Shown piece after piece: positions 3,120-45,523 of a DNA stretch of 64,000 bases. This stretch comes from Minisyncoccia bacterium (GTDB lineage Bacteria; Patescibacteriota; Minisyncoccia; UBA6257; 2-01-FULL-56-20). Each line of letters starts with the position of its first letter. Position 1 is the stretch's first letter. A program made the position numbers and the translations under genes. Under the pieces are notes generated by a model. It was not told the DNA's origin and made no database searches. It saw nothing but the letters and a program-made list of their open reading frames with translations. Location of the stretch: contig JBEKML010000001.1 of assembly GCA_050008535.1 (NCBI GenBank), positions 2,246 to 66,245 of the forward strand, read 5' to 3'.

Positions 3120-3185
3120 GCTAGCAAGAAGACGGTTTGAAAAGAGCCCTTCTTAGTACTCTTTTCAAACCGTCTTCTTGCTAGC
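3120..3185. repeat. Conserved-loop hairpin, copy 1. A 27-bp perfect stem (3120-3146 pairs with 3159-3185) carries a 12-nt loop CCCTTCTTAGTA. It sits between convergent znuB-like (+) and tRNA-Gly (-), 5 nt past the tRNA 3' end.
   Basis: Left arm gctagcaagaagacggtttgaaaagag is the exact reverse complement of the right arm. The same loop sequence recurs in five other hairpins in this window whose stems are unrelated. Confidence 0.85.
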
Positions 3186-24599: not shown

Positions 24600-24648
24600 C
24601 TAGCACATATGTCATTAAAATTCTCTTAAAGAAAACTTGACACGGAAT

Positions 24649-24728
24649 CATGATAGCGTGAGTTGTAGTGTTTGGCCGGCAGCCCTTCTTAGTACTGACG
24701 GCAAAACACTACAACTCACGCTATCATG
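24649..24728. repeat. Conserved-loop hairpin, copy 2. A 34-bp stem with two G:A mismatches carries the loop CCCTTCTTAGTA. It lies between rpsF and ssb.
   Basis: catgatagcgtgagttgtagtgttt... pairs with ...aaacactacaactcacgctatcatg. The loop is identical to copy 1 although the stem is unrelated. Confidence 0.85.
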
Positions 24729-28100: not shown

Positions 28101-31100
28101 GTTTTACGGCCTCGGCGCCGCTCCCCGCCTTGAAAATACTCCCGAACCTCCGCGAGAGCGAGAAATATTCGTTCTCCGAAAGGATCTGGCCAACGTGAAG
28201 ATTTTCCAAATATTCTTTCGTCGTGTCGGCGGCCTCCAAGATCTCTCCTTTTACCATCTTATCCTTATTGCCGACGGTCTTCAGCTTGCCCTTGAGCTCG
28301 CGCTCAAGGTCCGCAAGCGCAACTTTGCGGTTTTCCTCTTTTATCTCCGTGATGATGTAGGCCGAGTAATAAATGACGCGCTCAAGCTTCTGCGAAGAAA
28401 CGTCAAGGGCGAGCGCAAGGCGCGAAGGGATGCTCTTCAAGAACCAGATATGCGAGACAGGAGCGGCAAGCGCGATGTGGCCGATGCGCTCGCGCCGCAC
28501 CGCCGCGCGCGTGACCTCCACGCCGCACTTATCGCAGATCACGCCCTTGTAGCGGATCCGGCGATACTTGCCGCAATAGCACTCATAGTCCTTCGTAGGG
28601 CCGAAGATGCGTTCGGAGAACAAGCCGTCCTTCTCGGGGCGCTGCGTCCGATAATTGATGGTCTCCGGTTTTATCACCTCCCCATGGGACCATTTCAAAA
28701 TATCTTCCGACGACGCGACGCTGATCTTCAATGCGGAGAAATCATCTTTACGATCGGTTTCTGTCTCATACAGCGGCTGGATATTGAATCCAAGCGATTT
28801 AAGTTCGTTCACAAGCACATTGAAGGACGCCGGAATGTTCGGCTCCTTGATCTGCTCGCTGCGTATGATGGACTCGTACGCCGCTGCGCGGCCCAGGACG
28901 TCGTCGGACTTGATCGTGAGCATTTCCTGGAGCGTGTGGCGCGCGCCGTAGCCTTCAAGGGCCCACACCTCCATTTCGCCGAACCGTTGGCCGCCGAACT
29001 GCGCCTTCCCACCCAGCGGCTGCTGGGTGATCAAAGAGTACGGACCGATGGAACGCATGTGCGCCTTGTCTTCCACAAGATGGTTCAGCTTCATCATGTA
29101 CACCTGCCCCACGGTCACCCGGCTTTCAAAAGGTTCGCCGGTGCGGCCGTCAAAGAGCTTCACTTTGCCGTCCTCGGGCAGTCCCGCCTTCGCGAGTTCC
29201 TCGCGGATCTCCGCTTCCGTCGCCGAGTCCAGTCCCGGCGTGATCGCGCGGTATCCCAACTTTGAAGCCGCCCACCCCAAGTGGGTCTCCAGGATCTGGC
29301 CGAGGTTCATGCGCGAGATGACGCCCAACGGGTTCAAAACGATGTCCACCGGCGTGCCGTCCTCCAAATAGGGCATGTCTTCCGCCGCGCGCACCTGCGA
29401 GATGACGCCCTTGTTCCCGTGGCGCCCGGCAAGCTTGTCGCCCGACTGGACCTTCCGGAGTTCCGCGATCTCCACCTGAATGCGGCGGATGATCCCCGGC
29501 TCCAGCTTGTCGCCGCGCTCCCGGTCAAAGATCTTCACGTTCACCACGCGGCCCAGTTTCCCGTGCGGAAGGATAAGCGAGGTATCTTTCACGTCCCGCG
29601 CCTTCTCGCCGAAGATCGCACGGAGCAGGCGCTCTTCCGACGTCAGTTCCGATTCGCCCTTCGGCGAAATTTTCCCGACCAAAATGTCGCCGGCTTTGAC
29701 CTCGGCGCCGATGCGGATGATCCCCTCCTCGTCAAGATTTTTCAATTTGTCTTCCGAAACATTGGGGATATCGTAGGTGGTGACTTCCGGCCCTAATTTC
29801 GTGTCGCGTACGTCGCAATCATAATTATCAATATGGATGGAGGTGAAAAGGTCGTCGCGGACCACGCGTTCGGAAAGAACGATGGCATCCTCAAAATTCG
29901 CGCCTTCCCACGAGACGAAGGCAACAAGAAGATTCTGGCCCAGGGCGAGCACTCCGTGATCGATCGACGGACCGTCAGCGAGAATCTCTCCTTTTGCGAC
30001 CGCCTGCCCCGTAACGACGAGCGGTTTCTGCGAAATGCACGTGAATTGGTTGGAGCGTTTGAACTTTTCAAGAACGTAGTTTTTGGTCACCCTGCCATAC
30101 TTCACCTTAAGATGGTTCCCGTCGGCCTCAAGCACGGTCCCTTTGTCCTCGGCGACGATCACATAGCCCGAATCAAGCGCCACCCGCTCTTCCTCCCCCG
30201 TCGAAACATAGGGGGCGTCGGGCTTCACGGACACCACGGCCTGCCGTTGCATGTTCGAACCCATGAGCGCGCGGTTTGCATCGTCGTGCTGGAGGAAGGG
30301 AATAAGCGCGGTCGCAACCGAGATGAACTCGTTCGGAGCGACGTCGATAAGGTCTATTTCTTCCGGCGTGCAGGTTCCCGGCTCGCCTTTAATGCGCGCT
30401 TCCACGATCGGTCCTTTCAAGCGGTCTCCCTCGCGCGGGGTACCGGCATGGGTGATCTTGTATTTTTCTTCTTCCGAAGCATCGAACCAAACGATCTCGT
30501 TCGTAACGCGGCCGTCTTTTACCTTTGCATACGGCGCCTCCAAAAATCCAAAATCGTTGATGCGCGTAAAGCTTGCAAGATAATTGATAAGGCCTATGTT
30601 CGATCCCTCCGGCGTTTGGATCGGGCAGATACGGCCGTAGTGCGAGCGATGGACGTCGCGCACCTCAAAGCTCGCGCGTTCGCGCGTGAGGCCGCCGGGG
30701 CCGAGCGCCGAAATCCTCCGCTTATGCTCCAATTCCGCAAGCGGGTTCACCTGGTCCATGAACTGCGAAAGCTGCGAAGAAGCGAAAAACTCCTTGATGA
30801 CCGCGGCGATCGGACGGAAGTTCACGAGCTGCGACGGCATCAAATGATCTTTATCTTCCGTGGACATCCGGTCCTGGATGATCCTCCGCAAGCGCGCGAG
30901 CCCGATCCGGAGGCGGCCCTGCAAAAGCTCTCCCACGGTCTTCAGGCGGCGGTTGCCCAAGTGGTCGATGTCATCCTCTTCGGCCTCGGCATTGTTATTC
31001 AAAGAGATGATCTCTTTTACGATCCCAATGAGGTCCTCGGCATCCAAAAGTTTGTTGTTCTTCTTGCGATCCAGATCCAGGCGCTGGTTCATCTTGTAGC

Positions 31101-31905
31101 GGCCGACCTCCGAGAGGTCATAGCGATCAGGGCGATGGAACATCGCGTCAATGAGGCTTTTTGCCGTTTCCGCGCCCGCAGGGTCGCCCGGCCGCAAGCG
31201 GCGGTAGATCTCGATATACGACTCGGTCGTGTCTTTTGCGACGTCTTTTTTGAACGTCGCTTCGATGAATTTCACCGGGCCATTATCCATCTTCTCGAAT
31301 GCGGCCCCGATCTTTTCGTTGTCCAACCCGAATATACGAAGGATGTCCGTCACCGGCACTTTCCTCCGGCGGTCGATCTTCACGCCGATTTCGCCGTTCA
31401 CGTCGGTTTCGAATTCAAGCCAGGCGCCGCGCGAAGGAATGATCTTCGCGCCGAAAAGCTGCCGGCCGCGATAGGGCACCGCCGTGAAATACACGCCGGC
31501 GGAACGCACGAGCTGTGAAACCACCACGCGCTCAACGCCGTTCACGATGAACGTTCCGCGGCTTGTCATGATCGGGAAATCGCCGAAGTACACCTCTTGC
31601 TCTTCCGTCCTCCCCGTCCGCTTGTTCACCAGTTTCAAAGTGCACCGCAAGGGTGCTTCATACGTCGCTTCTTTGTACCGCGCCGTCGCCTCGTCATATT
31701 TCGGTTCGTCGAAACGATAGTTGGTAAAGGAAAGTTCGAACTCCTTGCCCGTGTGATCGCGGACCGGCGAAATTTCCACAAGGAGCTCCTGCAGCCCTTT
31801 ACCCAAAAACCACTGATACGACTTCAGTTGCGCTTCATTCAAATTGAATGGCGCAATAAGGGATTTCGATTTCGAAAAGTCTTTTATTTTGGAAAATTTT
31901 GCCAT
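25174..31905 (-). CDS. rpoBC: DNA-directed RNA polymerase beta-beta' fusion (rpoB and rpoC in one continuous frame). The start is taken at ATG 31905 ([10 protein letters not shown]...).
   Basis: N-terminal half is RpoB (rifampicin-region and GEMEVWALE-like motifs). The RpoB C-terminal end ...[24 protein letters not shown] runs without a stop into the RpoC N-terminus ...[40 protein letters not shown] (zinc finger), through NADFDGDQM to the C-terminus. Total 2243 aa. Confidence 0.85.
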
Positions 31906-31995
31906 CAAAATAAAGTTTTTTATAATGAAAAAGTTTGCTCCCCTCCAACGCACAAAAAACGGCTCCCTTCTCTTTTTTCAAGAAGTCCGTTCTAA

Positions 31996-34036: not shown

Positions 34037-34816
34037 TTACGACCGGAGCGCGTAGGCAAAGACCTTCGTAAGCGACGGGACGACGCTCGGCACCGTTGGA
34101 TACGCCACGGAAAAATCCTCGGTTTGGTTCGGCGCGATCGCGTCAAGCATGGTTTGTGAAGCACCGACCGGCTTGCCGTTCTTATCGTAGAAAATAGCGA
34201 CGATAAATATATTGTTGAATGCCGCAATATCGCCGTCGGCAACCTGTCCCGTCACCGTAATGCTGCTTGACGAAATCGTGGTGCCCGTGATCGGCAAAGG
34301 AGCGCCGCGCGAATTCCCCAATTGCGGCACAAGGCCCATTGCGGAGCCGGTCGTCCATGTGGTGCTTCCTATCACAAGTGCGGCATGATCCACCGTGGTT
34401 GTAACGTTCACATTAGGGATCAGGAGGTACTTCACTTCGCTTGCATAAATGAAGGATTGGCCGGGGACCGATCCAATAAGCGCCCCCGAGGCATCATAGA
34501 GATCGAATGAATAACCAAAGCCCGGAGAAGCGAATCCTGCATTGTGATTTTCCACCTCCGCGAGGAAGGTATAATGCCCGGGACTTGAAACAAATGTCTG
34601 AACGTTTCCTACGGTAATACTAAGTGTTTCCGATGGAACGCACACCTTGGCGCACGGTCCGCCGCAGTCCACGCCCGCTTCTCCCTGGTTTTGCACATTG
34701 TCAAAGCACGACGGCGCCCGATAAAAAAACAAAAAATAGATGCCCAGGGCGATACCGACGAGCACAACAAGGTAAAGCACGCCGTAGATCATCTGCTTCA
34801 TCCACCGTGGGGTCAT
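34037..34816 (-). CDS. Hypothetical membrane-anchored extracytoplasmic protein.
   Basis: N-terminal TM (MIYGVLYLVVLVGIALGIYFLFF), a short Cys cluster (CFDNV...CGGPCAKVC), then a Ser/Thr/Gly-rich beta-type domain. No recognisable family. Confidence 0.4.
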   Translation of the reverse strand: MTPRWMKQMIYGVLYLVVLVGIALGIYFLFFYRAPSCFDNVQNQGEAGVDCGGPCAKVCVPSETLSITVGNVQTFVSSPGHYTFLAEVENHNAGFASPGFGYSFDLYDASGALIGSVPGQSFIYASEVKYLLIPNVNVTTTVDHAALVIGSTTWTTGSAMGLVPQLGNSRGAPLPITGTTISSSSITVTGQVADGDIAAFNNIFIVAIFYDKNGKPVGASQTMLDAIAPNQTEDFSVAYPTVPSVVPSLTKVFAYALRS

Positions 34817-34922
34817 GGGTTCATTATAACGGATTTACCCAAATCTAAGGTCGTAAGCAACTTATGAACTTAGGTTTGGAGGGGGGTGTGCTCGGGCGTG
34901 GTGCCTGGCTCCTCCCCTTCCC

Positions 34923-35318
34923 TTAAGTGATCGGGTGGCAGGAAAGCGGGGAGATGCCCCTTCTCTTCCTGCGCTTCCCTGGCGGATCGTTCAGCTCGAG
35001 ATCCACATCCACCGAGTAATCGGCGTTAATCGCGGTGATTCTTGCGGGCCCGCCATTGTAGGTAACGGGCTGGCCCGTCACGAGCCCCCTTCCAACCACC
35101 ACGACCATGTTACGTGCAGCATGGCAACGATTCGATAGAGCGGCCGCCTCCTCCCTGAACCTTGTGGGGGGAGCGTCGACGCCAAGAATGACCCTGACAT
35201 TCCTGATGATCTCGGCTCGCCGCGCAGGGTCTCGCCTGCACCGGTGGTAATACTCCTCGAGCAGCCTTTCGCATAGATCCAACTGCTCATCTGCCAACAA
35301 CGGAATTGGCGTAGACAT
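34923..35318 (-). CDS. Hypothetical protein (131 aa).
   Basis: An ORF with a strong SD (acgacAAGGAGGcggcaATG) and the upstream ACCTAAGTTCA box. No recognisable domain. Confidence 0.4.
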   Translation of the reverse strand: MSTPIPLLADEQLDLCERLLEEYYHRCRRDPARRAEIIRNVRVILGVDAPPTRFREEAAALSNRCHAARNMVVVVGRGLVTGQPVTYNGGPARITAINADYSVDVDLELNDPPGKRRKRRGISPLSCHPIT

Positions 35319-35368
35319 TGCCGCCTCCTTGTCGTAAGTATTTTATGAACTTAGGTTGGGGGGCGATG

Positions 35369-35650
35369 TTACTCGCCCACCTCCTTCTTCTTTCTGCCGA
35401 GAACGACCCCGCAGGCAATCGCGGAGACCACGGTAAGGACGGCGAAGGCCTGAGTGCCGACCTTCCTCGCAGCCACCTCTTCCTTCACGGAACCGGCAAG
35501 GGCTGTGTTGCCCTGTTCTCCCTGGGCAAGGCAGGCGCTCTGCCCGAGAGAGATTCCCCAGTTCGTTGCGTTGTAGAGGGAGAGATAGCCGAACACCAGC
35601 GCAAGAAGCGCCAGCAAGACCACGAGACGCTTTCTCATGAGATAGCTCAC
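35369..35650 (-). CDS. Hypothetical small membrane protein (93 aa, two TM segments).
   Basis: GAGGTG SD upstream; hydrophobic N- and C-terminal segments. Confidence 0.35.
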   Translation of the reverse strand: MSYLMRKRLVVLLALLALVFGYLSLYNATNWGISLGQSACLAQGEQGNTALAGSVKEEVAARKVGTQAFAVLTVVSAIACGVVLGRKKKEVGE

Positions 35651-35717
35651 CTCAGAGCTGTGCTTGTTATAGCCTATTTATAGAATTATGTCCAGTGCAC
35701 GGGACGGGATTTGAACA

Positions 35718-35740
35718 AATAACAAAAAACGGCCCTTTGA
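35718..35740 (-). terminator. U-tract immediately after the 5S rRNA 3' end. 5S helix I plus the T-run probably act as the operon terminator.
   Basis: The minus strand reads ...GCCGACATCAAAGGGCCGTTTTTTGTTATTTGTTC directly after the 5S 3' end. Confidence 0.35.
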
Positions 35741-35861
35741 TGTCGGCACATCCTACTTTCCCCGCAGGCGAACCCGCAAGTATCATCGGATCGGGGCGCT
35801 TTCACTTCTCTGTTCGGAATGGGAAGAGGTGGGACACGCCCGAATAAAGCACCGACATCAA
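35738..35861 (-). rRNA. rrf: 5S ribosomal RNA.
   Basis: Reverse complement contains CCCATTCCGAACAGAGAAGTGAAAGCGCC... (5S loop B/helix III consensus), and the terminal helix I pairs gatgtcggtgc with gcaccgacatc. About 124 nt. Confidence 0.85.
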
Positions 35862-35874
35862 AAGGTCGTTCACA

Positions 35875-35934
35875 GACAGGTATGCGTTTTGGCAACAGTA
35901 CTAAGAAGGGCTGTTGCCAAAACGCATACCTGTC
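35875..35934. repeat. Conserved-loop hairpin, copy 3, in the 23S-5S spacer. A 24-bp perfect stem carries the loop in the opposite orientation (TACTAAGAAGGG).
   Basis: gacaggtatgcgttttggcaacag is the exact reverse complement of ctgttgccaaaacgcatacctgtc. Confidence 0.85.
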
Positions 35935-35960
35935 TGCTCACTCTCTTTGAACATTGATTG

Positions 35961-36030
35961 AGTGTTTGCCAAATAGCGTTTGGACGAGAGCCCTTCTTAG
36001 TACTCTCGGACAAACGCTATTTGGCAAACA
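35961..36030. repeat. Conserved-loop hairpin, copy 4, in the 23S-5S spacer. A 29-bp stem with a 2-nt internal mismatch carries the loop CCCTTCTTAGTA. It abuts the 23S 3' processing stem.
   Basis: gtgtttgccaaatagcgtttggacgagag pairs with ctctcggacaaacgctatttggcaaacac. Confidence 0.85.
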
Positions 36031-36033
36031 CGA

Positions 36034-36054
36034 AGTCAGCATTGGGATGGTTGG
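36034..36054. repeat. 3' arm of the 23S rRNA processing stem. It is the exact reverse complement of 40083-40103, about 4 kb away.
   Basis: gtcagcattgggatggttggc at 36034 matches gccaaccatcccaatgctgac at 40083 as a 21-bp perfect long-range inverted repeat bracketing the 23S gene. This is the classic RNase III processing helix. Confidence 0.8.
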
Positions 36055-36157
36055 CGGGATTATTAGTACTCCTTGGCTGAAGCCATTGCTGGCCTTACAC
36101 CTAGAGCCTATCAACGTGGTAGTCTTCCACGAAATCACGCACACCTAATCTTGGGGT

Positions 36158-36191
<34 letters not shown>

Positions 36192-36333
36192 CTTCCATAC
36201 ATAGCTACCCGGCAGTTCACCTGGTGGCAAAGCCGGTAGACCAGAGGTATGTTCAGCCCAGTCCTCTCGTACTAAGGCCAACTCCCCTCAAGTGTTAAAC
36301 GCCTGCAGCAGATAGAGACCGACCTGTCTCACG

Positions 36334-37086
36334 CAATATATTATTTCACGCCATTGCTGGCGGTTTGGACTATACCACCATCTCGATCCACACCGAGATG
36401 ACCGACGTTTTATGGAATTTTTCTTCCATCCAATCCCTTAGATTGAGTCTCTACGGGGTCAATGTATATAGCTTTCGCTTCTTTGAATAATTCAATTCTC
36501 TGAAACGATCTACGGTCTTCATCAGCACGTGAAAATCGCCTTGATTTTTCACATTCGCTTTTTTATCCAAGACTTCCAGCATAAGCATCGCTTGATCCTT
36601 TTTCATAATGAGGTACGGCTGAACTATATCAAGAAATGCGCGGATAGCGCCTTCTCTCGCAATAGTATATTCAACCATGCCGTCATTTCTCTCTCGGAAA
36701 TAACCGAGGTTGACGAAGGAACAAACTTGCTTGAACTTTTTCAGTTCTTTTTTGGATTGGAACAACACAATATACGGTGCTACTTGAAATCCGTACCGAT
36801 ATTCGGCATTAGGTTTCAATCGCACGTAAATGCTTCCATCTCCATCTAGAAATCCTGCAATATATGCTTTTTGTGCTGACGAAAGACTTTTCATACACGA
36901 CTTCCCTCGGTATTATCCTATAATCACCCACTCATGCAAAATATCTTTTAATATATTTTTAATGAGCATTGTGGTATGTCCACAGGTCATGGACATTAGG
37001 ACTTCACCGATATGAGTCGATTTATGCACCCTAACGTTGCCGCTAGGGGCCGCCGTGTTCGATTATCGTTAAGGGTTCTTTGGTTG
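36334..37086 (-). mobile_element. Group I intron in 23S rRNA at the E. coli L2593-equivalent (I-CreI-type) site, carrying a LAGLIDADG homing endonuclease ORF.
   Basis: The flanking exons rejoin to GGGTTCAGACCGT|CGTGAGACAG, matching E. coli GGGTTTAGAACGTCGTGAGACAG exactly. Exon 1 ends in U, the intron ends in G, and the ORF lies in a peripheral loop. Confidence 0.75.
36451..36894 (-). CDS. LAGLIDADG homing endonuclease (single-motif, I-CreI-like) encoded in the 23S group I intron.
   Basis: MKSLSSAQKAYIAGFLDGDGSIYVRLKPN... has a single LAGLIDADG motif (IAGFLDGDGSI) near the N-terminus; 147 aa. Confidence 0.85.
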   Translation of the reverse strand: MKSLSSAQKAYIAGFLDGDGSIYVRLKPNAEYRYGFQVAPYIVLFQSKKELKKFKQVCSFVNLGYFRERNDGMVEYTIAREGAIRAFLDIVQPYLIMKKDQAMLMLEVLDKKANVKNQGDFHVLMKTVDRFRELNYSKKRKLYTLTP

Positions 37087-38493
37087 ACGGTCTGAACCCA
37101 GCTCACGTGCCACTTTAATTGGCGAACAGCCAAACGCTTGGGAGCTTCTTCACCCCCGCGCTGTGGCGAGCCGACATCGAGGTGCCGAGCGAAGTCGTCG
37201 ATAGGAACTCTCGGACTTCACCAGCCTGTTATCCCCGGAGTAGCTTTTATCCGGTGTCTCCGGCCTTTCTATCAAGAGTTTAATGAATCGTAAGAAACAA
37301 TAAACGTAGCCGTCGGGTCACTAACTTCTGCTTTCGCACCTGCTCGACTTGTAGGTCTCGCAGTCAAGCCGGCTTTTGCGTTTGCACGTCCTGCCCGATT
37401 TCCATCCGGGCTAAGCCGACCTTAATAAACTCCTCCGTTACTTTTTTGGAGGAAAACGCCCCATTTAAACTGCCTACCAAGCACTGTCTCAGCCGGGTTT
37501 ATGCTTGCGCACTTCCCAGCCGGTTAGTCTTTAAAATCTTAAAGATGGCTGTTTCATTGTCGGATCCACCGCCCCCGAGAGGGCGGCTTCAAATCCTCAC
37601 CACTACGCTACGCATCAAGATTCTAAAGACAATACCAAGCTGCAGTAAAGCTTCCGGGGTCTTTTCGTCCCGCTGCAGGTATCCCGCGTCTTCACGGGAA
37701 TCGCATTTTCACCGAGCTTGCCTCTGAGACAGTTCTCCAGTCGTTACGAGCACCGCACCTTGCGGCACGGCACCCCCAACCTTGACCTTCTCGCATCGGT
37801 CAGGCGTCACCCCCTATACATCCTCTTGCGAGTTAGCAGGGAGCTGTGTTTTTGGTAAACAGTCGCCAGAGAGACTTTCGCTGCGGCCCCTCAATAAAGA
37901 AGGGCAGGCCATATTGCTAACTTACGGCCGCTTTTTTGCCGAGTTCCTTAGAGGCAAATCACTCGTTCCCCTTGGGCTTCTCGCCCTATCTACCAGTGTC
38001 GGTTTACGGTACGGATCCTCTGTAACGTTACCGTCGTGCTTTTCTCGGAAGGCTCTTCACGCGTGTTAGTGAGGTAAATTCCTCACCTTCCGCCAATCCT
38101 CGCTTGAACTTCGGACCAGCGATACCAAACCAATAAGGCATACGCACTTATTTCCTTCGCACACGACGGATAATCACAAAGGAGGGCTGGAATATTAACC
38201 AGCATTCCATCAGCTGCGGCTTTCGCCATCGCCTTAGGACCGCCTAACCCGTGGTTGATTGCCAGTGCCACGGAAACCTTGGATTTTCGGGGTTCCAATT
38301 TCTCATTGGGATTGTGGTTACTCATGCCAACATTTTCTCTTCCGGCCGCTCCAAACGCCCTCGCGGGTCGATCTTCGCTGCAGACCGGAATGCTCTCCTA
38401 CCGCGCATGGACTTCATAGAGGAGGCCAAGCGAACATATGCTCGCCTCGCACTCCGATAATTATTGCTATTCGTGTTGACCGCCCAGGAGGGG

Positions 38494-38570
38494 TGGTCGG
38501 GCCGGTGGGATTTGAACCCACGACTTCCGAGGCCCGAGCTCGGCGCGCTACCAGGCTGCGCCACGGCCCG
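38494..38570 (-). tRNA. tRNA-Pro(CGG) embedded inside the 23S helix-45 IVS, with CCA encoded (38494-38496).
   Basis: CGGGCCG-TG-GCGC-AGCCTGGTA-GCGC-G-CCGAG-CTCGGGC-CTCGG-AAGTC-GTGGG-TTCAAAT-CCCAC-CGGCCCG-A-CCA. The D-arm GGCGCAGCCTGGTAGCGC is identical to E. coli tRNA-Pro, and G72/A73 plus G35G36 are the Pro identity set. Confidence 0.65.
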
Positions 38571-38703
38571 CCACACGAATGGCGGAGGGGCACGGGGATT
38601 CCTCCCCGCGCCAAGCCAAAACTACCGTACATGGCCTCCCAACAGCACGCTTGCGCATGCCAAGGCGCCCCTCCATGAAACAAAACAAAGAGCTACTAAG
38701 AGA

Positions 38704-38791
38704 TGGTGGAGCGGGGGAGAGTCGAACTCCCCTATGGCCCCGTAGTAATCGCGCACCGAAATGCAATGCGCGCACACACAGGCCGCGCCCC
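38704..38791 (-). ncRNA. tRNA-like element inside the IVS. It has an acceptor stem with a G3:U70 wobble, a T-arm and encoded CCA, but no recognisable D or anticodon arms.
   Basis: TGGGGCGCGG...[hairpin-rich 50 nt]...ATAG-GGGAG-TTCGACT-CTCCC-CCGCTCC-A-CCA. The 5' GGGGCGC pairs with the 3' CCGCTCC (6 of 7 pairs, G3:U70). It resembles a tRNA-Ala/tmRNA-type acceptor/T-arm minihelix. Confidence 0.3.
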
Positions 38792-39540
38792 ACAACTCTT
38801 CACGAAACAAACTACTCCTCTATGAAGTCCACGCACCCGTATCTTCGGTACCATGCTTAGCCCCGGTACATTTTCGGCGCCACCACCCATCGAATAGTGA
38901 GTTGTTACACACTCTTTAAAGGATGGCTACCTCTAAGCCAACCTCCTATCTGTCTATGGGTGATGACTACCTTTCACACTTAGCATGGATTTGGGGACCT
39001 TAGATAACGGTCTGGGCTCTTCCCCTCGCGACCACGGAGCTTAGCCCCCGCAGTCTGACTAGGGTAATACCACCACGGTATTCGGAGTTTGATTGACTCG
39101 TCGGCCTTTCGGCCTTTACGAATCATCCAGTGCTCTACCCCCGTGGCTACCTTACCCCGCTAGTCCTAAAACTATTTCGGAGAGAACCAGCTATTACCAA
39201 ATTCGATTAGCTTTTCACTCCTTACCTCAGCTCATCCGAAGGTGTTGAACAACCCACCGGTTCGGGCCTCCCCTTCGATTTCTCGAAGGTTCACCCTGGC
39301 CAAGGCAAGCTCATCTGGCTTCGGGTCTACCTTGTGATGCCATAGTTCGCCCTATTAAGACTCGCTTTCGCTGTGCCTCCGCGCTTTCGCGCTTAGACAA
39401 GCAACACAAGATAAGTCGTTGGCTCATTCTTCAATAGGCACATTGTTGCACTCGTCCGCGGATTGCTCCGCGATCGTTCGTGCTTCAATTCCTTGTAGAC
39501 AAATGGTTTCAGGTTCTATTTCAACGGCCTCACCGGCCTG

Positions 39541-39577
<37 letters not shown>

Positions 39578-40082
39578 ATCTAGAAAAGTATTTAGCCTTC
39601 AAGTTGAAAAACTAAGGAGATCATTAGTTTTCGCCTACGGGGCTATCACCCGCTCTGGCGCCGTCTTTCCAGGCGGCTTCGGCTAACCAACGATTTTTTT
39701 ACTCCTCCACCTCGATAGCCAATAGCCACCCGGGAAAAACCCGAGTCGCTATTAGCTAAAAAGAGCGTCTTCCTCTTATTACCCCAAGGTCCGATCTTGC
39801 GATCAGAACCTTAGTTTGGGCTCTTCCCTGTTCTCTCGCCGATACTAAGGGAATAAACTTTTGTTCTTTGTTCCTCTGGCTACTGAAATGTTTTACTTCG
39901 CCAAGTACGCGAATCGGCTTGCGCCGAAACGATTGCGGGTTACGCAATCAGGTTTCCCCATTCGGAAATCCCCGGATCACAGGTTGCTACGCACCTCCCC
40001 GAGGCGTATCGTCGCTACGCCACGTCCTTCATCGCCTTTTCTAGTCAAGGCATCCACCATTCGCCCTTAATGCCAACCATCC

Positions 40083-40103
40083 CAATGCTGACTTACTAAC
40101 TGC
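40083..40103. repeat. 5' arm of the 23S processing stem (partner of 36034-36054).
   Basis: Exact 21-nt reverse complement of 36034-36054, located immediately upstream of the 23S 5' end on the transcribed strand. Confidence 0.8.
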
Positions 40104-40501
40104 TCTGCCTGCCAAGAGAAATTGCGCGCTTTGTGAAAATGCGATTGTCGATAGCGCGTGTCCGGCACAATACCAGACATAATAATGGCGCAGAGCTTCT
40201 TATACCATACTCCGACTCTACAATTCGGAGCCGCCCAATGACTACCAAGGCGGACGATGTTAAATTGCGTTCCATGCACGAATCCCGGGAAAAAAATCAG
40301 CCGCACACGGCGGCCGCCCCAGTGCGCAAAAACGCGCGGTTCAGCCGCAATGCTTTTGGAGGATTATTTTCGCGTTCATTCGTACGAGGTCTATTATACG
40401 CGGCGGCAAAATAGTGTCAAGTGGGCGAAAATCCCACACTAGACCGATAAAGGAAAATCCTATATGGTCATTAGAGAAATCTTCGGTTCCAAGGAGGGAC
40501 C

Positions 40502-40873
40502 ATGTCCATGTTTGTTCGCGTAGGCGCGGTTTTGCTTCTCGCCCTATCCCTTTGCGCCGTCGGGCAAGAGGCTCCCAAAAGCGGCGAAACGACGCCGTGC
40601 GCACCGAAGACGCCGGGCTACATAGAGTTTGCCTGCGCAGATATCGTCGTGCCGCCGCCGCAGAAAAACGGGAGTGGAGCGGCCGTGAGTAATGACGAGC
40701 AAAAAGCGCTGTCCAGGATACTGGCCATCAACCAGAGGACCATCCTCATGGCTCAGTACCTGACGGATAAAGAAAAATGGCACGCGAATGTGCCGAGGCT
40801 CGTTCTCGAAACAAAGAAACTGGCCGATAAGCTTTGCGAGCAGTTCAAGTGCGAAGCGAAGGCGGCCAAGTGA
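40502..40873 (+). CDS. Small secreted hypothetical protein (signal peptide plus 4 Cys).
   Basis: MSMFVRVGAVLLLALSLCAVGQEAP... is a signal peptide; an AAGGAGGG SD lies 6 nt upstream; 123 aa. Confidence 0.5.
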   Translation: MSMFVRVGAVLLLALSLCAVGQEAPKSGETTPCAPKTPGYIEFACADIVVPPPQKNGSGAAVSNDEQKALSRILAINQRTILMAQYLTDKEKWHANVPRLVLETKKLADKLCEQFKCEAKAAK

Positions 40874-40890
40874 AAGCACGGAGGCATTCA

Positions 40891-40938
40891 GGGGCGGCGC
40901 TCATCGTCGCCCCGATCCTTTAGTTTGAGTTTTTTTTG
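40891..40938 (+). terminator. Rho-independent terminator with a GC hairpin and a T8 tract.
   Basis: ggggcggcg-ctcat-cgtcgcccc is followed by gatcctttagtttgagttttttttg. Confidence 0.75.
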
Positions 40939-40966
40939 AAACAGGGTACTATTCAAGCACGGTAAA

Positions 40967-41037
40967 CGGGCCGTCGTATAGTGGTAGTATACACGCTTCG
41001 GGTGCGTGCGGTCTGGGTTCGATTCCCAGCGGCCCGA
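40967..41037 (+). tRNA. tRNA-Pro(CGG), free-standing copy, with no encoded CCA.
   Basis: Acceptor CGGGCCG/CGGCCCG is identical to the IVS copy, with discriminator A. Anticodon stem-loop CACGC-TTCGGGT-GCGTG, T-arm CTGGG-TTCGATT-CCCAG. The body sequence is divergent from the IVS copy. Confidence 0.7.
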
Positions 41038-41045
41038 CAAGAGAA

Positions 41046-41111
41046 CATAAAGCAGGTACGGTTTGAAACGAGTACTAAGAAGGGCTCGTTTCAAACCGTA
41101 CCTGCTTTATG
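41046..41111. repeat. Conserved-loop hairpin, copy 5. A 27-bp perfect stem carries the loop TACTAAGAAGGG. It lies 8 nt after the tRNA-Pro 3' end and ahead of a convergent gene.
   Basis: cataaagcaggtacggtttgaaacgag pairs with ctcgtttcaaaccgtacctgctttatg. Confidence 0.85.
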
Positions 41112-41126
41112 TTTGTTCGTTTTGCG

Positions 41127-41534
41127 TCAGCTTATCTTGGAGAGGTCGCCGTTAAGAATTATCGGCTCGACAGCCTGAAGTTCGTCCTTAATGTACGGCT
41201 GGTCAGGCATGGGATTAAGGAAATAAATTTTCTTTCCCTTGTAATGCGCGAATCCGATCTCCAGGAATGAGTTTGCGCCGATATAGTTTTCTATTTCCCC
41301 CTTGGTAAAGTTCGTGACGAGAATAGCATCGGAATTTTCTATTTTCCGCATGTGTTCGCCGATAAGCCCGAGGCTTTGTTTTGCCTGCACGCGGCCTGAA
41401 TTATCTTCCGCCCAATAATTGACACCTGGGACCTTGATCGGCATAAAGACGGTGTGTCCCATGGCTTCAAGCTTTTTCTGGACCTCGATTTCTTGATCGT
41501 AAAACTTTATTGAGCCGCAGATCGTGATGGTCAT
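41127..41534 (-). CDS. Nucleoside 2-deoxyribosyltransferase-like (Rcl/DNPH1-like fold) protein. The start is taken at ATG 41534 (MTITICGS...).
   Basis: MTITICGSIKFYDQ...AILVTNF... has a flavodoxin-like N-deoxyribosyltransferase-superfamily pattern; 135 aa. Confidence 0.4.
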   Translation of the reverse strand: MTITICGSIKFYDQEIEVQKKLEAMGHTVFMPIKVPGVNYWAEDNSGRVQAKQSLGLIGEHMRKIENSDAILVTNFTKGEIENYIGANSFLEIGFAHYKGKKIYFLNPMPDQPYIKDELQAVEPIILNGDLSKIS

Positions 41535-41536
41535 GG

Positions 41537-41968
41537 TTAGATTATGTTCAATTTCTTGAACCAGTATTCCCACACCGGCTCAAGTTTCAATGTTTTGATT
41601 TCGTCCTTTTGGTACCAACCGGCGGATTTCGTTTCCTGCTCGTTTTTTTTCATTTCTCCCGAAACGCTGCACTCAAAAAGGTACCAATAATGGGCGCCCA
41701 CTCCCTTACTGCACCAGTTCCAGCCAAGTTCTTCTTCAAAGAGAAGCTTCGCGCTGTCCGCCTCCAACCCTGTTTCTTCCCTGATTTCCCGCACCACGGC
41801 TTGCTGCTCGTCTTCTCCTTCGTCAACATGGCCCGCAACCCCTGCGAATCCGAGGGGCGGTACGGCGCGGTCGATCAAAAGATATTTTCCGTCCCGCAGG
41901 ATGAGCGCTCCCGCCGAAAAATGCATTGGTTTGCCATCCCTCGTTTCGCCTTTTTTGGGGATTGCCAT
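41537..41968 (-). CDS. NUDIX hydrolase.
   Basis: NUDIX box GHVDEGEDEQQAVVREIREETGL. Confidence 0.8.
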   Translation of the reverse strand: MAIPKKGETRDGKPMHFSAGALILRDGKYLLIDRAVPPLGFAGVAGHVDEGEDEQQAVVREIREETGLEADSAKLLFEEELGWNWCSKGVGAHYWYLFECSVSGEMKKNEQETKSAGWYQKDEIKTLKLEPVWEYWFKKLNII

Positions 41969-42032
41969 CCGAATATTCTATCACGAAAAACGAATGCTCG
42001 AACAATACTACTTGCCATGCATGTCCGCCGCG

Positions 42033-42431
42033 CTATTTTCTCCTCCGCCTTTCCCGATGGAGCTGCTTTGATTTCTGCGTGATGGCGAAAACGGAAAGGA
42101 CCATAATGTAATCCGCAACCACCTCGGGCTCAAGCATGTAGTGTTTGCCGCTTGAGAAAAAAGCGATGCCGGAAAGAAGAAAGACGAGCACCGTCCACGC
42201 GACAATGAAGAGCTCCCCGGGGTGGCGACTGTCGTGGATGTCATACCAACGGTCGAATTCCTTCGTGCTGGCGTAAAGCATAAGCACGCCCGCATAGACG
42301 GCGCTCAAGGGGAGGGTAAGTGCTTCGTACTTGTTAAGCGAGAAAAAATTCACGACCACAAACACCATGAAGACGATAGTCCACATTGCGCAGAGGAACC
42401 GCCATATCCGTTCGTCGCGAAAGGGTCCCAT
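42033..42431 (-). CDS. Hypothetical integral membrane protein (4 TM).
   Basis: 132 aa, hydrophobic, with a basic C-terminus. Confidence 0.4.
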   Translation of the reverse strand: MGPFRDERIWRFLCAMWTIVFMVFVVVNFFSLNKYEALTLPLSAVYAGVLMLYASTKEFDRWYDIHDSRHPGELFIVAWTVLVFLLSGIAFFSSGKHYMLEPEVVADYIMVLSVFAITQKSKQLHRERRRRK

Positions 42432-43888
42432 TACTTCACAAAATACTTCTTTTTTATTCCTTCTTCAAGTTCCGTCTCGAATTCATCTTTCGCGGCGCGG
42501 GCTTTTTCGGCAAGCGCCTTGAGTGCGGCATCGCCCAATTCGTTCAATTCCCTCATCCGCACGATCAATCCGTCCCGCTCATTTTTCTTCGGATCATCAA
42601 GTACCTCTTCCAGGAGTGCGGCGAGGATCCAGCCGACGCGGTGGCCGGGCGCGATCTTCAAGATCTCCATCACGTCGTCGCCGTTCACTTTGAGCATTTT
42701 GGGCGAGATCGGGTCGTTCTTCACTTTTTCGATCATAAACATCAAGTGGCGGTTCTTGTACGGAGTGGCTTTCGGGGCGCCCGAGCCGATGCGATCGGCT
42801 TCACGGACCTTGAATAAATCCGGCACCGTTTCCGGTCCCACGCGCGCAAGGAACCGCCGCACGCCGCGCTCGCTTACCTCTCCCACGCTGTAATAGAACA
42901 TGTGATAACGCACCAAGTGCGCTACTTCTTCTATAAATTCCTTTGAAAATCGCAGACGGTCGAGCGCCTTCGCCGCCATTTTTGCGCCAACGTATTCGTG
43001 CTGATAGAAGGTGGATGCTTTACCTTCGCCTTGTTTTGTGCGGGGCTTGCCGACATCGTGCAGGAACGACGCCATCCGCACCGCAAGCGAATAATCCTGC
43101 TTTGCGGCGTAATCAAGCGCACGCACGCTGTGCTCAAAAACGGTATAGACATGATGCAAGTTTTGGTCGACGCCCAATCCCTCGCGCAACTCCGGCAGAA
43201 CATATCGCAAAAGGCCAAGTTCCTCCAAAAGGAGTATCCCCTTCGCCGCGCGGGGCGCCCCTATGATCTTCGCAAACTCGTCGCGGATCCGCTCCTTCGC
43301 GATCATTTCAAGTTCGCCGGCCAATCGCTCGATCGCGCGCCGCGTGTTCATTTCTATCTCAAAATCCAATTCCACCGCAAAGCGGACGGCACGCATAAGG
43401 CGCAGCGCGTCTTCGGCGAAGCGCTCCGCAGGCGCGCCCACCGTGCGGATGATCTTTTCTTCCAAATCATCCTTCCCGCCGAAAGGATCGAGCACTTCGC
43501 CCTTCAGATTCATCGCAAGCGCGTTCACGGTAAAATCGCGGCGGCTCAAATCTTCTTTGATCGTCTTTGCGAATTTCACTTTGTCCGGATGCCGCTTGTC
43601 CGTATATTTTCCCTCAATCCGATACGTGGTCACCTCAACCACGTGCAATTTCGGATCTTCCGATTCTGTCTTCACGCCCACCGTGCCGAAATCATTTTCG
43701 TACACGCTCTCCGGAAAAAGCTTCTGGATCTCCTCCGGCCGCGCGTTCGTCGCCACGTCCCAATCCTTCGGCTCGCGGGCCAAGAGCATATCCCGGACAC
43801 ATCCGCCCACAAGATATGCCTCAAATCCCGCCTCTGCCAGGATCTTTGAGATTTCAGCGACCTCTTGAGGAACGGAGGTTTTTTTCAT
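42431..43888 (-). CDS. cca: CCA-adding tRNA nucleotidyltransferase (pol-beta NTase head plus C-terminal HD domain).
   Basis: GGCVRDMLL ... DWD (NTase motif) and a downstream HD phosphohydrolase region; 485 aa. It is functionally required because the four free-standing tRNA genes here do not encode CCA. Confidence 0.8.
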   Translation of the reverse strand: MKKTSVPQEVAEISKILAEAGFEAYLVGGCVRDMLLAREPKDWDVATNARPEEIQKLFPESVYENDFGTVGVKTESEDPKLHVVEVTTYRIEGKYTDKRHPDKVKFAKTIKEDLSRRDFTVNALAMNLKGEVLDPFGGKDDLEEKIIRTVGAPAERFAEDALRLMRAVRFAVELDFEIEMNTRRAIERLAGELEMIAKERIRDEFAKIIGAPRAAKGILLLEELGLLRYVLPELREGLGVDQNLHHVYTVFEHSVRALDYAAKQDYSLAVRMASFLHDVGKPRTKQGEGKASTFYQHEYVGAKMAAKALDRLRFSKEFIEEVAHLVRYHMFYYSVGEVSERGVRRFLARVGPETVPDLFKVREADRIGSGAPKATPYKNRHLMFMIEKVKNDPISPKMLKVNGDDVMEILKIAPGHRVGWILAALLEEVLDDPKKNERDGLIVRMRELNELGDAALKALAEKARAAKDEFETELEEGIKKKYFVK

Positions 43889-43899
43889 GTGCCCGGGGC

Positions 43900-45090: not shown

Positions 45091-45138
45091 AATAGCAAAA
45101 ATGCGGAGAAGGGCAAGGGAAATGCACTCGAGAAATCG

Positions 45139-45211
45139 TGCCGGCGGCAGGATTCGAACCTGCGACCTTGGCCTTATGAAAGCCCTGCTCTAACCACTGA
45201 GCTACGCCGGC
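45139..45211 (-). tRNA. tRNA-Met(CAU), elongator-type (Ile-lysidine not excluded); no encoded CCA.
   Basis: GCCGGCG-TA-GCTC-AGTGGTTA-GAGC-A-GGGCT-TTCATAA-GGCCA-AGGTC-GCAGG-TTCGAAT-CCTGC-CGCCGGC-A; G1-C72 is paired. Confidence 0.75.
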
Positions 45212-45277
45212 GCACCACCACTATATTATTTTCCGGCCGCCCCGTAAAGTCACGCATAAAAAATAAAAGTGAAAGAC

Positions 45278-45343
45278 GGTGGTAGCAATGGCTTTTGAAA
45301 CGAGCCCTTCCTAGTACTCGTTTCAAAAGCCATTGCTACCACC
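45278..45343. repeat. Conserved-loop hairpin, copy 6. A 27-bp perfect stem carries the loop variant CCCTTCCTAGTA (one T to C change). It lies 66 nt upstream of tRNA-Met.
   Basis: ggtggtagcaatggcttttgaaacgag pairs with ctcgtttcaaaagccattgctaccacc. Confidence 0.85.
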
Positions 45344-45517: not shown

Positions 45518-45523
45518 GAAATC

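What the first reader, a model, noticed from the sequence alone, without database searches (positions are those of the whole stretch)
35875..36030. Two conserved-loop hairpins in opposite orientation fill the 23S-5S spacer and abut the 23S processing stem
Copy 3 (35875-35934) and copy 4 (35961-36030) sit between the 5S 5' end (35861) and the 23S 3' processing-stem arm (36034-36054). They present the loop in both orientations. This suggests the hairpins themselves are the spacer processing sites that release 5S from 23S, for example by RNase III cleavage of the long perfect duplexes. That would make the family a general stable-RNA processing signal.
Basis: partly seen in the sequence, partly recalled or inferred. 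Interest (0 to 1): 0.55.

Follow-up and report, generated by a model that had tools for sequence, protein, structure and literature searches.

The report
Capped long hairpins in rRNA spacer
The two hairpins between the 23S and 5S rRNA genes are real, and belong to an apparently undescribed family of very long, perfectly paired hairpins with an identical 16-base tip that sit just after highly expressed genes in tiny "candidate phyla radiation" bacteria; related genomes always keep a long hairpin in this spacer, but not this tip, orientation, number or position.

Summary
Observation confirmed. Hairpin 3 (35873-35936, 26 bp) and hairpin 4 (35962-36031, 29 bp) fill about 76% of the 176-nt 23S-5S spacer. 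They carry the same 12-nt loop in opposite orientations.

The window has six such hairpins (0.06 expected). They are its six longest inverted repeats. The organism is a Minisyncoccia (CPR/Patescibacteria) bacterium.

I collected 22 distinct copies from several Minisyncoccota genomes. The tip AG-UACU-NNGA-AGGG-CU is invariant, the distal stems are unique, and 513 of 528 stem positions are Watson-Crick with no G-U.

The copies start 1-6 nt after tRNAs, 23S, rpsF or convergent genes. The family is therefore not specific to stable RNA.

The true processing helices are separate. They are a perfect 23-bp 23S stem (40094-40072 with 36033-36055) and an extended 5S helix I.

All six related spacers hold at least one long hairpin. 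The tip type, orientation, number and site vary.

Interpretation partly supported. A long spacer duplex is conserved and is a plausible RNase III substrate, but the conserved loop is dispensable there.

Best reading: lineage-wide 3'-end or punctuation hairpins with interchangeable caps. Main rival: REP-like palindromic DNA elements. I found no Rfam match and no literature on the motif.

The parts
35873..35936 (+). Hairpin 3 (type A). It has a 26-bp perfect stem and the tip motif AG-TACTAAGAAGGG-CT on the + strand, which is antisense to the rRNA transcript. It ends 6 nt before the 5S helix-I extension.
   Evidence: (79.2 bits)
35962..36031 (-). Hairpin 4 (type A). It has a 29-bp stem with a 2x2 internal mismatch, and the tip motif is sense to the rRNA transcript. 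It starts 1 nt after the 23S 3' processing arm.
   Evidence: (69.8 bits). The ortholog in L076 shows 3 compensated pair changes and an identical loop.
35937..35961 (-). Linker between the two hairpins. It contains the box GAGTGAGC, which is conserved in front of the 5S-proximal hairpin in relatives.
36033..36055 (-). 3' arm of the 23S processing stem.
   Evidence: 23 bp perfect with 40094-40072. The arm sequence is conserved in L076 and L158-L161.
40072..40094 (-). 5' arm of the 23S processing stem.
36056..40080 (-). 23S rRNA, carrying two insertions (see noticed in passing).
35741..35856 (-). 5S rRNA.
35716..35740 (-). 5S 3' flank. TCAAAGGG pairs with the 5' flank (35857-35866) to extend helix I. 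It is followed by GTTTTTTGTTATTTG, a terminator-like U-run.
35857..35866 (-). 5S 5' flank (ACCTTTTGAT) that extends helix I. It is conserved in all relatives.
40393..40420 (-). Consensus sigma-70-type promoter match (TTGACA-16-TATAAT, 12 of 12) upstream of 23S. No promoter-like site lies between 23S and 5S.
3120..3185 (-). Family copy 1. It has a 27-bp perfect stem and lies 4 nt after tRNA-Gly(CCC) in sense orientation. It sits between the convergent tRNA-Gly and an ABC-3 gene.
24649..24728 (-). Family copy 2. It has a 34-bp stem and lies 1 nt after the rpsF stop codon in sense orientation. It is followed by a conserved promoter-like box in front of ssb.
41044..41113 (+). Family copy 5. It has a 29-bp perfect stem and lies 5 nt after tRNA-Pro(CGG) in sense orientation. 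A convergent ORF ends 14 nt away.
45278..45343 (-). Family copy 6. It has a 27-bp perfect stem and the loop variant TACTAGGAAGGG. It lies after a tRNA-like gene (45360-45430) and before a weak promoter-like site and tRNA-Met.
   Evidence: The ortholog in L114 has 2 compensated changes.

Best explanation
**What they are.** Hairpins 3 and 4 are two copies of a lineage-wide class of very long hairpin elements found in Minisyncoccota (CPR) bacteria. The stems are 26-34 bp and strictly Watson-Crick. Each element is capped by one of a few interchangeable tip modules. The module here, "type A", is AG-UACU-NNGA-AGGG-CU. It is predicted to fold into a 2-bp mini-helix with an NNGA tetraloop, an A.G mismatch and a U.G pair.

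**Where they sit.** These hairpins lie 1-6 nt beyond the end of highly expressed genes: tRNAs, 23S, rpsF and genes that end convergently.

**How they most likely work (inferred).** In RNA they act as structural punctuation.
- At the ends of transcription units they define and protect the 3' end and probably stop RNA polymerase. They would do so in both directions, which would explain why G-U pairs are absent.
- Inside the 23S-5S operon polymerase must read through them, because 5S has no promoter of its own. There the long duplexes separate the 23S processing stem from the extended 5S helix. They are likely cut by RNase III and discarded with the spacer.

**Shown versus inferred.**
- Shown: the family, its anatomy, its placement, its distribution, and its turnover with conserved presence.
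- Inferred: termination, protection and RNase III cleavage.
- The conserved tip is a signature of the family, but it is not what the spacer requires.
For: **Family and anatomy**
- exactly six copies in the window.
- copies in other Minisyncoccota genomes.
- 22 distinct copies with an invariant 16-nt tip. 513 of 528 stem cells are Watson-Crick and none is G-U. 22 of 27 pairs change on both sides.

**Placement at gene ends**
- copies directly after tRNA-Gly, -Pro, -Arg and -Lys, after stop codons, and between convergent genes.
- Copy 2 lies 1 nt after the rpsF stop. It is followed by a promoter-like box (TGTGCTAGAAT, 6 nt, ATG) that is conserved in 8 relatives. This marks a transcription-unit boundary.
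- Copy 6 is followed by weak promoter-like matches before tRNA-Met.

**Conserved presence despite turnover**
- All 9 rpsF-ssb intergenic regions have a long hairpin right after rpsF.
- All 6 spacers examined have at least one.

**Selection or correction of pairing**
- L114 shows 2 compensated changes at 96.8% flank identity.
- L076 shows 3 compensated changes in hairpin 4.

**Read-through in the operon**
- There is a perfect promoter upstream of 23S and none before 5S.
Against: - None of the family hairpins is followed by a canonical U-tract. A U-tract does follow 5S, so the organism appears to use ordinary terminators too.
- No RNA data exist for this organism. Termination, protection and RNase III cleavage are all inferred.
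- Tip orientation is not fixed.
  - It is antisense at the 5S-proximal site in two genomes (window and L158).
  - It is antisense next to tRNAs in another genome (L036, L038).
  - A second tip type occurs in opposite orientations in different genomes.
  - This weakens any RNA-level role for the tip itself.
- Complete absence of G-U is unusual for helices selected only as RNA. DNA-level template switching predicts it as well.
- At one site the whole hairpin was replaced between genomes with 90% identical flanks. This looks like insertion and deletion of DNA modules.
Confidence: 0.42

Rival explanations
1. These are REP/MITE-like palindromic DNA elements. A short mobile or recombining core (tip plus about 11-13 bp of proximal stem) seeds a palindrome. 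The palindrome is then perfected and extended outward by intrastrand template switching until it meets constrained sequence. The spacer copies are tolerated passengers with no dedicated RNA function.
For: - The distal stems are unique, but the tip is identical and the proximal stem is semi-conserved.
- There are no G-U pairs in 528 cells, and every stem difference is either compensated or a plain mismatch. This fits arm-to-arm copying, the quasipalindrome template-switch mutation known from E. coli (established knowledge).
- Whole hairpins are gained, lost or replaced between relatives at both spacer sites and at the rpsF site.
- Tips occur in either orientation.
- The pair in opposite orientation resembles a BIME.
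- The hairpins stop 1-6 nt from functional sequence, as expected for growth bounded by selection.
Against: - No two copies share a distal stem, so there is no sign of copy-and-paste of whole elements.
- I saw no transposase or RAYT in the ORFs I scanned. Only part of the window was scanned.
- A hairpin is present at every orthologous rpsF site and in every spacer examined. A neutral passenger would not predict this.
- The 16-nt tip is identical in distant genomes, which needs selection or recent transfer.
- None of the viral contig matches has a stem.
Confidence: 0.3
2. The hairpins are the dedicated RNase III sites that release 5S from 23S, and the conserved loop marks a general processing signal for stable RNA.
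For: - The stems are long perfect duplexes of 26-29 bp.
- A long hairpin is always present in the spacer of relatives.
- Four of the six window copies abut the 3' end of a stable RNA.
- The hairpins start 1-6 nt after the closing helix of a tRNA or of 23S.
- There is a functional analogy in yeast: Rnt1p cleaves AGNN-capped hairpins in the rRNA 3' ETS (established knowledge).
Against: - Separate canonical processing helices already bracket 23S and 5S.
- The loop is not conserved in orthologous spacers. Their number, position and orientation vary.
- The family also follows rpsF and other protein genes.
- tRNA-Asp and tRNA-Met in the window have no such hairpin.
Confidence: 0.12
3. The tip is a binding site for a lineage-specific protein. 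The hairpins, cut from abundant tRNA and rRNA precursors, act in trans as small hairpin RNAs, for example as a protein sponge or as a source of short duplexes.
For: - The 16-nt tip is invariant across 22 copies. Variation is confined to the first two tetraloop positions (AA, AG, CG).
- Sense orientation predominates in the window genome, at 5 of 6 copies.
- Co-transcription with the most highly expressed genes would make the RNA abundant.
Against: - Antisense copies are frequent, and one is conserved at the same site in two genomes.
- Relatives use other tips at the same sites.
- No candidate protein was identified.
- There is no expression data.
Confidence: 0.1
4. The two complementary loops of hairpins 3 and 4 kiss each other and fold the spacer into a defined shape that brings the 23S and 5S ends together.
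For: The two loops are perfectly complementary over 12 nt within one transcript.
Against: - L158 and L160 have only one spacer hairpin.
- In L076 the two loops share at most about 4-5 contiguous complementary bases.
- The complementarity in the window follows trivially from one motif being present in both orientations.
Confidence: 0.03

Closest known systems
REP / BIME elements (repetitive extragenic palindromes of proteobacteria)
   Same: - Both are dispersed intergenic hairpins at the 3' ends of genes and between cistrons.
- Both occur in either orientation and as oppositely oriented pairs with a short linker. Hairpins 3 and 4 form such a pair.
- REPs are thought to protect upstream RNA and sometimes to stop transcription.
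   Different: - REPs are 20-40 nt and imperfect. The whole sequence, stem included, is repeated, they carry a GTAG or CGTC tag, and they are mobilised by RAYT transposases.
- Here only the tip and the proximal stem are shared. The distal stems are unique and perfect at 26-34 bp, there is no tag, and no RAYT was seen.
Intrinsic (including bidirectional) transcription terminators, some with favoured loops such as UUCG or GNRA
   Same: - Both place a hairpin directly after the gene end, often between convergent genes.
- Both show a recurring loop motif on otherwise unrelated stems.
- A promoter for the next gene follows (copy 2).
   Different: - The family hairpins have no U-tract.
- Their stems are two to four times longer than usual.
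- Two copies lie inside an operon that must be read through.
rRNA processing stems and helix-45-type intervening sequences cleaved by RNase III
   Same: - Both are long duplexes in pre-rRNA that are removed during maturation.
- This 23S has both a 23-bp processing stem and an intervening sequence with a 16-bp base stem.
   Different: - Processing stems pair the 5' and 3' flanks around a mature RNA.
- The spacer hairpins are local and enclose nothing.
Yeast Rnt1p substrates (AGNN-capped hairpins, including the pre-rRNA 3' ETS)
   Same: - In both, a conserved cap sits on a variable stem placed just 3' of the large rRNA.
- In yeast the cap positions an RNase III-family cut that also triggers termination.
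   Different: - Rnt1p is a eukaryotic enzyme and its cap is a 4-nt loop.
- No evidence here shows that any enzyme reads the tip.
- Relatives lack the tip at the same site.
Unlinked 23S-5S operon maturation in Helicobacter pylori (PMC6582327)
   Same: - A 23S-5S operon without 16S.
- RNase III acts on long stems that flank 23S.
   Different: No family of capped spacer hairpins is described there. I read only the abstract.

Membership tests
REP/BIME | Many near-identical copies in which the stem sequence itself is repeated | tested here: not met
   - The six window copies and 16 others have unrelated distal stems.
- The covariance model finds no further copies in the window.
REP/BIME | GTAG or CGTC tetranucleotide tag at one end of the palindrome | tested here: not met
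   The stem ends read GCTAGC, CATGAT, CAGACA, GTGTTT, AACATA and GGTGGT. They share no tag.
REP/BIME | A cognate RAYT (TnpA-REP) gene in the genome | not testable with these tools
   - Only 64 kb of the genome is in hand.
- The 20 ORFs scanned are housekeeping genes or have no Pfam match, plus one LAGLIDADG endonuclease.
Canonical intrinsic terminator | Short G+C-rich stem followed within 0-2 nt by a run of U | tested here: not met
   - The terminator scan of 34500-46000 does not report any family hairpin as a whole.
- The tails read from the sequence are not U-runs.
- A U-run does follow the extended 5S helix.
Canonical intrinsic terminator | Located at the end of a transcription unit | tested here: inconclusive
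   - Met for copies 1, 2, 5 and probably 6.
- Not met for hairpins 3 and 4, which lie between 23S and 5S with no promoter in between.
rRNA processing stem (RNase III site) | Pairing between the 5' and 3' flanks that encloses the mature rRNA | tested here: not met
   - The hairpins are local stem-loops.
- The enclosing stem is 40094-40072 paired with 36033-36055.
rRNA processing stem (RNase III site) | Cleavage by RNase III in vivo or in vitro | not testable with these tools
   - There is no RNA data.
- Duplex length of 26-29 bp is sufficient in principle (established knowledge).
Any Rfam family | Match to a curated covariance model | tested here: not met
   Only sub-threshold matches to plant and animal microRNA precursor models, which reflect hairpin shape.
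Type A capped long hairpin (family defined here) | Invariant tip AG-TACT-NNGA-AGGG-CT on a Watson-Crick stem of at least 24 bp | tested here: met
   Hairpins 3 and 4 score 79.2 and 69.8 bits with model R1 and fit the alignment.

The most novel reading that the evidence does not exclude
The tip (GUACU-NNGA-AGGGC on a long perfect duplex) is a previously undescribed RNA recognition module of CPR bacteria. On this reading a lineage-specific factor, for example an RNase III-type enzyme or a termination or processing protein, reads the cap and acts at a fixed distance down the stem. CPR bacteria would then have a cap-directed 3'-end formation system for their most highly expressed RNAs. It would be analogous to yeast Rnt1p with its AGNN caps, and could yield abundant small hairpin or duplex RNAs.
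Probability: 0.1. Interest if true: 0.8.

Novelty: new variant of a known kind. Interest (0 to 1): 0.5.

Why it matters
CPR bacteria make up a large share of bacterial diversity. They are almost uncultured, and how they end transcripts and mature stable RNAs is essentially unknown.

A recurrent element with an identical 16-nt cap, sitting 1-6 nt after tRNAs, 23S rRNA and ribosomal-protein genes, gives a concrete handle. It can be searched for in metatranscriptomes as a marker of 3' ends. Its cap can be used as bait for a binding factor.

The complete absence of G-U pairs makes the family a clean test case. It can help separate RNA-level selection from DNA-level correction of palindromes.

For genome annotation, these hairpins explain the unusually long "spacers" found next to stable RNA genes. 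Because they resemble microRNA precursors in shape, they can be mistaken for other families.

Tried and rejected
**Database and literature searches**
1. Known RNA family. Rfam at gathering and E-value thresholds gave only sub-threshold microRNA-precursor hits.
2. Literature. Exact-motif and topic searches found nothing on this element.
3. Phage origin. All three viral-contig matches to the 16-mer lack a stem.

**Structural and pairing ideas**
4. Loop-loop kissing. It is not conserved: L158 and L160 have one hairpin, and L076 has poor complementarity.
5. Loop pairing to rRNA. Only chance-level matches of 8-9 nt inside 23S.
6. Resemblances noted by eye. I looked at the sarcin-ricin loop (shared AGUAC), lambda nutR boxB (shared AAGAAGGGC), the CsrA SELEX hairpin (RUACARGGAUGU) and a Shine-Dalgarno sequence (UAAGAAGG against UAAGGAGG). 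I dropped each for a specific reason.
   - The equal arm lengths exclude a bulged-G register.
   - The main loop lacks GGA.
   - The position after genes does not suit ribosome binding.
   - None of the four was tested beyond reading the sequence.

**Transcription and evolution ideas**
7. A separate 5S promoter. None was found between 23S and 5S, and the flanks next to the variable arms are too short.
8. The tip inserted into a pre-existing terminator loop. At the rpsF site the closest relative's hairpin shares no stem sequence with the window's distal stem. The test was uninformative rather than supportive.
9. Strict sense orientation of the tip. This is contradicted by L036, L038, L158 and hairpin 3.
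10. Default-filter covariance search of the syntenic loci found nothing. Reading the intergenic regions directly showed why: the relatives carry other tips.

Full report
**1. What is at the coordinates**

The window carries a 23S-5S rRNA operon on the minus strand. Rfam places 5S at 35741-35856 and 23S at 36056-40080. There is no 16S gene in the window.

Two long inverted repeats lie between the rRNA genes.
- Hairpin 3 has arms 35873-35898 and 35911-35936 (26 bp, perfect).
- Hairpin 4 has arms 35962-35990 and 36003-36031 (29 bp, with one 2x2 internal mismatch).
- Each has exactly 12 nt between its arms.
- The 12 nt are TACTAAGAAGGG, on the plus strand in hairpin 3 and on the minus strand in hairpin 4.

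In the rRNA transcript hairpin 4 therefore shows UACUAAGAAGGG and hairpin 3 shows its complement.

The motif, with up to 1 mismatch, occurs six times in the window against 0.06 expected. The six sites are the six longest inverted repeats in the window. The spacer plus 5S folds far better than shuffled sequence (z = -11.6).

Two boundaries need a small correction: the 5S 5' end is at 35856, and the 23S 3' arm is 36033-36055.

**2. The real processing helices are separate**

A 23-nt stretch upstream of 23S (40094-40072) is perfectly complementary to 36033-36055, just after 23S. This is the classical stem that encloses 23S.

The 5S flanks (35857-35866 and 35733-35740) extend helix I. The 3' flank is followed by GTTTTTTGTTATTTG.

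Hairpin 4 begins 1 nt after the 23S arm. Hairpin 3 ends 6 nt before the 5S flank. Together they take 134 of the 176 spacer bases.

A 12-of-12 match to the sigma-70 consensus lies upstream of 23S (40420-40393). Nothing promoter-like lies between 23S and 5S. 5S must therefore be made by reading through both hairpins.

**3. The family in the window**

| Copy | Coordinates | Position |
|---|---|---|
| 1 | 3120-3185 | 4 nt after tRNA-Gly, facing a convergent ABC-3 gene |
| 2 | 24649-24728 | 1 nt after the rpsF stop, before ssb |
| 5 | 41044-41113 | 5 nt after tRNA-Pro, facing a convergent ORF |
| 6 | 45278-45343 | after a tRNA-like gene, before tRNA-Met |

All four copies have the tip in sense orientation relative to the gene they follow. 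Hairpin 4 is also sense and hairpin 3 is antisense.

A covariance model built from 16 copies finds exactly these six in the window and nothing weaker.

**4. The organism and the wider distribution**

The S6 protein of the window is identical to one that NCBI names as coming from a Minisyncoccia MAG. Minisyncoccia is a class of the phylum Minisyncoccota, also called Candidatus Paceibacterota, which belongs to the CPR/Patescibacteria.

I scanned species-representative genomes and metagenomes for the 16-mer AGTACTA[A/G]GAAGGGCT. Most hits were chance matches without a stem. Every hit that did have a long stem with a source name came from a Minisyncoccota MAG, an unclassified MAG or an unnamed metagenome contig:
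- a Paceibacterota MAG, with 5 copies on 4 contigs;
- MAG MFD01476.bin.2.169, labelled only "uncultured bacterium" and shown to be a relative by synteny and about 60% protein identity;
- a Minisyncoccia MAG;
- one contig binned as Saccharibacteria;
- several further metagenome contigs.

None of the three viral-contig matches has a stem. Rfam has no matching family. Seven literature searches found nothing on the motif.

**5. Anatomy from 22 distinct copies**

- The invariant positions are A23 G24 | U25 A26 C27 U28 . . G31 A32 A33 G34 G35 G36 | C37 U38.
- Only positions 29-30 vary (AA, AG or CG).
- ViennaRNA folds the sense tip as U25.G36, an A26/G35 mismatch, C27-G34, U28-A33 and a tetraloop NNGA.
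- The next 11-13 bp are semi-conserved (consensus GYTTTGAAANNAG / CTNNTTTCAAARC) and show compensated changes.
- The distal 12-20 bp are unrelated between copies.
- Of 528 stem cells, 513 are Watson-Crick and none is G-U. Of the 15 mismatches, 11 are pyrimidine-pyrimidine, and a T.C at pair 21/40 recurs in one subtype.

The pairing is far above the shuffled and slid controls. The total lack of G-U means the covariation is not, by itself, evidence for an RNA structure. Two other explanations fit equally well. The hairpin may need to form on both strands, as in a bidirectional terminator. Alternatively, one arm may be copied from the other at the DNA level, as in quasipalindrome template switching (established knowledge).

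**6. Orthologous sites**

*(a) The rpsF-ssb site.* Eight syntenic loci from relatives (S6 identity 86-50%) all have a long hairpin straight after the rpsF stop. The hairpins differ:
- a 13-bp stem with an unrelated loop in the closest relative, whose flanks are about 90% identical in DNA;
- a second tip type, "type B" (GAATTCGTCTTCGTACGA), in L151;
- the same tip inverted in L152 and L153;
- long stems with branched interiors of roughly 40-130 nt in L154, L155 and L157;
- an ordinary terminator in L156.

A promoter-like box (TGTGCTAGAAT, 6 nt, ATG) follows in all of them. The hairpin therefore sits at a transcription-unit boundary.

*(b) Close strains.* These keep the window's hairpins. The copy 6 ortholog in L114 (96.8% identity in the flanks) has two doubly compensated stem changes.

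*(c) The 23S-5S spacer.* The processing arm and the 5S flank are conserved in all relatives. The content between them varies.

| Genome | Spacer content |
|---|---|
| Window | type A sense, then type A antisense |
| L076 | type A sense (three compensated changes, identical loop), then type B |
| L158 | only a 5S-proximal type A hairpin, antisense |
| L159 | a short hairpin with loop GCCGTCAAAACTC, then an 8-bp hairpin |
| L160 | only a 23S-proximal hairpin with type B inverted |
| L161 | two long hairpins with branched interiors |

In short, a long hairpin is always present. The tip, orientation, number and site are not conserved.

**7. Interpretation**

The placement 1-6 nt after gene ends, the convergent contexts and the promoter after copy 2 point to a role in RNA punctuation. 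So does conserved presence despite complete sequence turnover. The candidate roles are 3'-end definition, protection and probably termination.

In the rRNA operon the hairpins must be read through. There, the conserved presence of a long duplex fits an RNase III entry or insulation role between the two processing helices.

- The hairpins are not needed to release 5S, since the canonical helices exist.
- The conserved loop is not the conserved feature of the spacer.
- The family is not specific to stable RNA.
- Two window tRNAs (Asp, Met) have no such hairpin.

**8. The main rival**

The main rival is that these are REP-like palindromic DNA elements. Several observations favour it:
- the absence of G-U pairs;
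- replacement, gain and loss of whole hairpins between relatives;
- tips found in either orientation;
- a BIME-like pair in the spacer;
- stems that stop just short of functional sequence.

Against it, no distal stem is ever repeated, I saw no transposase, and presence at orthologous sites is conserved.

The two views are not exclusive. REPs are both mobile and functional. I give 0.42 to punctuation elements with an RNA role and 0.30 to mainly DNA-level elements.

**9. Novelty and score**

The element works like known things: REPs, terminators and RNase III stems. Its architecture is different, with an invariant cap, a semi-conserved neck and a unique perfect distal stem. It is absent from Rfam and from the searched literature. 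I rate it a new variant of a known kind.

I set interest at 0.5. The family is solid and CPR-wide. Its function is still inferred, and the specific claim about 5S release is only partly borne out.

Noticed in passing
window 38411-38823 (minus strand), inside 23S: There is a 413-nt insertion in the loop of the 23S helix at Rfam model position 1218, a helix-45-type intervening-sequence site. Its base stem is 16 bp (GGACTTCATAGAGGAG / CTCCTCTATGAAGTCC). Inside it is a complete cloverleaf tRNA-Pro(CGG) at 38497-38570 (65 bits, also called by ARAGORN). Upstream of that is a tRNA/tmRNA-like T-arm, acceptor and CCA piece (38704-38791). The insertion is also present in strain contig L097. A full tRNA gene nested in a 23S intervening sequence would fragment 23S through RNase P/Z and RNase III.
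   Followed up: partly
window 36334-37085 (minus strand), inside 23S: There is an insertion of about 750 nt at the I-CreI-type site of 23S (Rfam model position about 2620). It carries a 147-aa LAGLIDADG endonuclease ORF (36451-36894). It is absent from the near-identical strain contigs L055 and L097, so it is polymorphic in the population. No Rfam group I intron match was found in the window, although relatives L159 and L160 have matches.
   Followed up: partly
window 24590-24648 and the same site in L150-L157: ssb appears to be leaderless. A conserved extended -10 box (TGTGCTAGAAT) lies 6 nt before the ATG in the window and in all eight relatives.
   Followed up: partly
window 25174-31953 (minus strand): rpoB and rpoC are fused into one ORF of 2259 aa. 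The fusion is also intact in relatives L151, L153-L156, L159 and L161.
   Followed up: no
window 35331-35693 compared with L055 11239-13856 and L097 375-2992: Just downstream of 5S, the near-identical strain contigs carry about 2.6 kb where the window has 363 nt. This is a strain-level insertion or deletion next to the rRNA operon.
   Followed up: no
window 45360-45430 (minus strand): This is a tRNA-like gene with a CAU anticodon loop (CCCAUAA) and an odd T-loop. It lies behind a near-consensus promoter (45495-45466). ARAGORN does not call it, and Rfam gives only a weak tRNA-Sec match. Family copy 6 follows it.
   Followed up: partly
L151 237-300, 10431-10502, 11827-11892, about 12370-12440; L076 315-371; L152 10418-10502; L160 8778-8836: A second capped-hairpin family, "type B", has the tip GAATTCGTCTTCGTACGA on long perfect stems. 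Four copies lie in one 16.8-kb locus, all in the same orientation. In another genome the tip is in the opposite orientation. Its reverse complement resembles the type A tip (shared GTAC-N-AAGA-N'-G).
   Followed up: partly
L150 about 5405-5446; L152 9914-9961; L159 about 8899-8934: A loop motif CC(G/A)TCAAAAC recurs on shorter hairpins at the same kinds of site. It may be a third tip type, or a deletion derivative of the type A subtype that has GCCGTCAG in its neck.
   Followed up: no
window about 35937-35946 (the GAGTGAGC core at 35937-35944); the same position in L076, L158 and L159: A conserved box (A)GGAGTGAGC sits directly before the 5S-proximal hairpin. It resembles a Shine-Dalgarno sequence. 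It is absent from L160, which also lacks that hairpin. Box and hairpin may therefore be gained or lost together.
   Followed up: no
window 40298-40316 (minus strand): A terminator-like hairpin with a U-run (CGGCCGCCGTGTGCGGCTG ATTTTTTT) lies in the leader between the consensus promoter and the 23S 5' processing arm.
   Followed up: no
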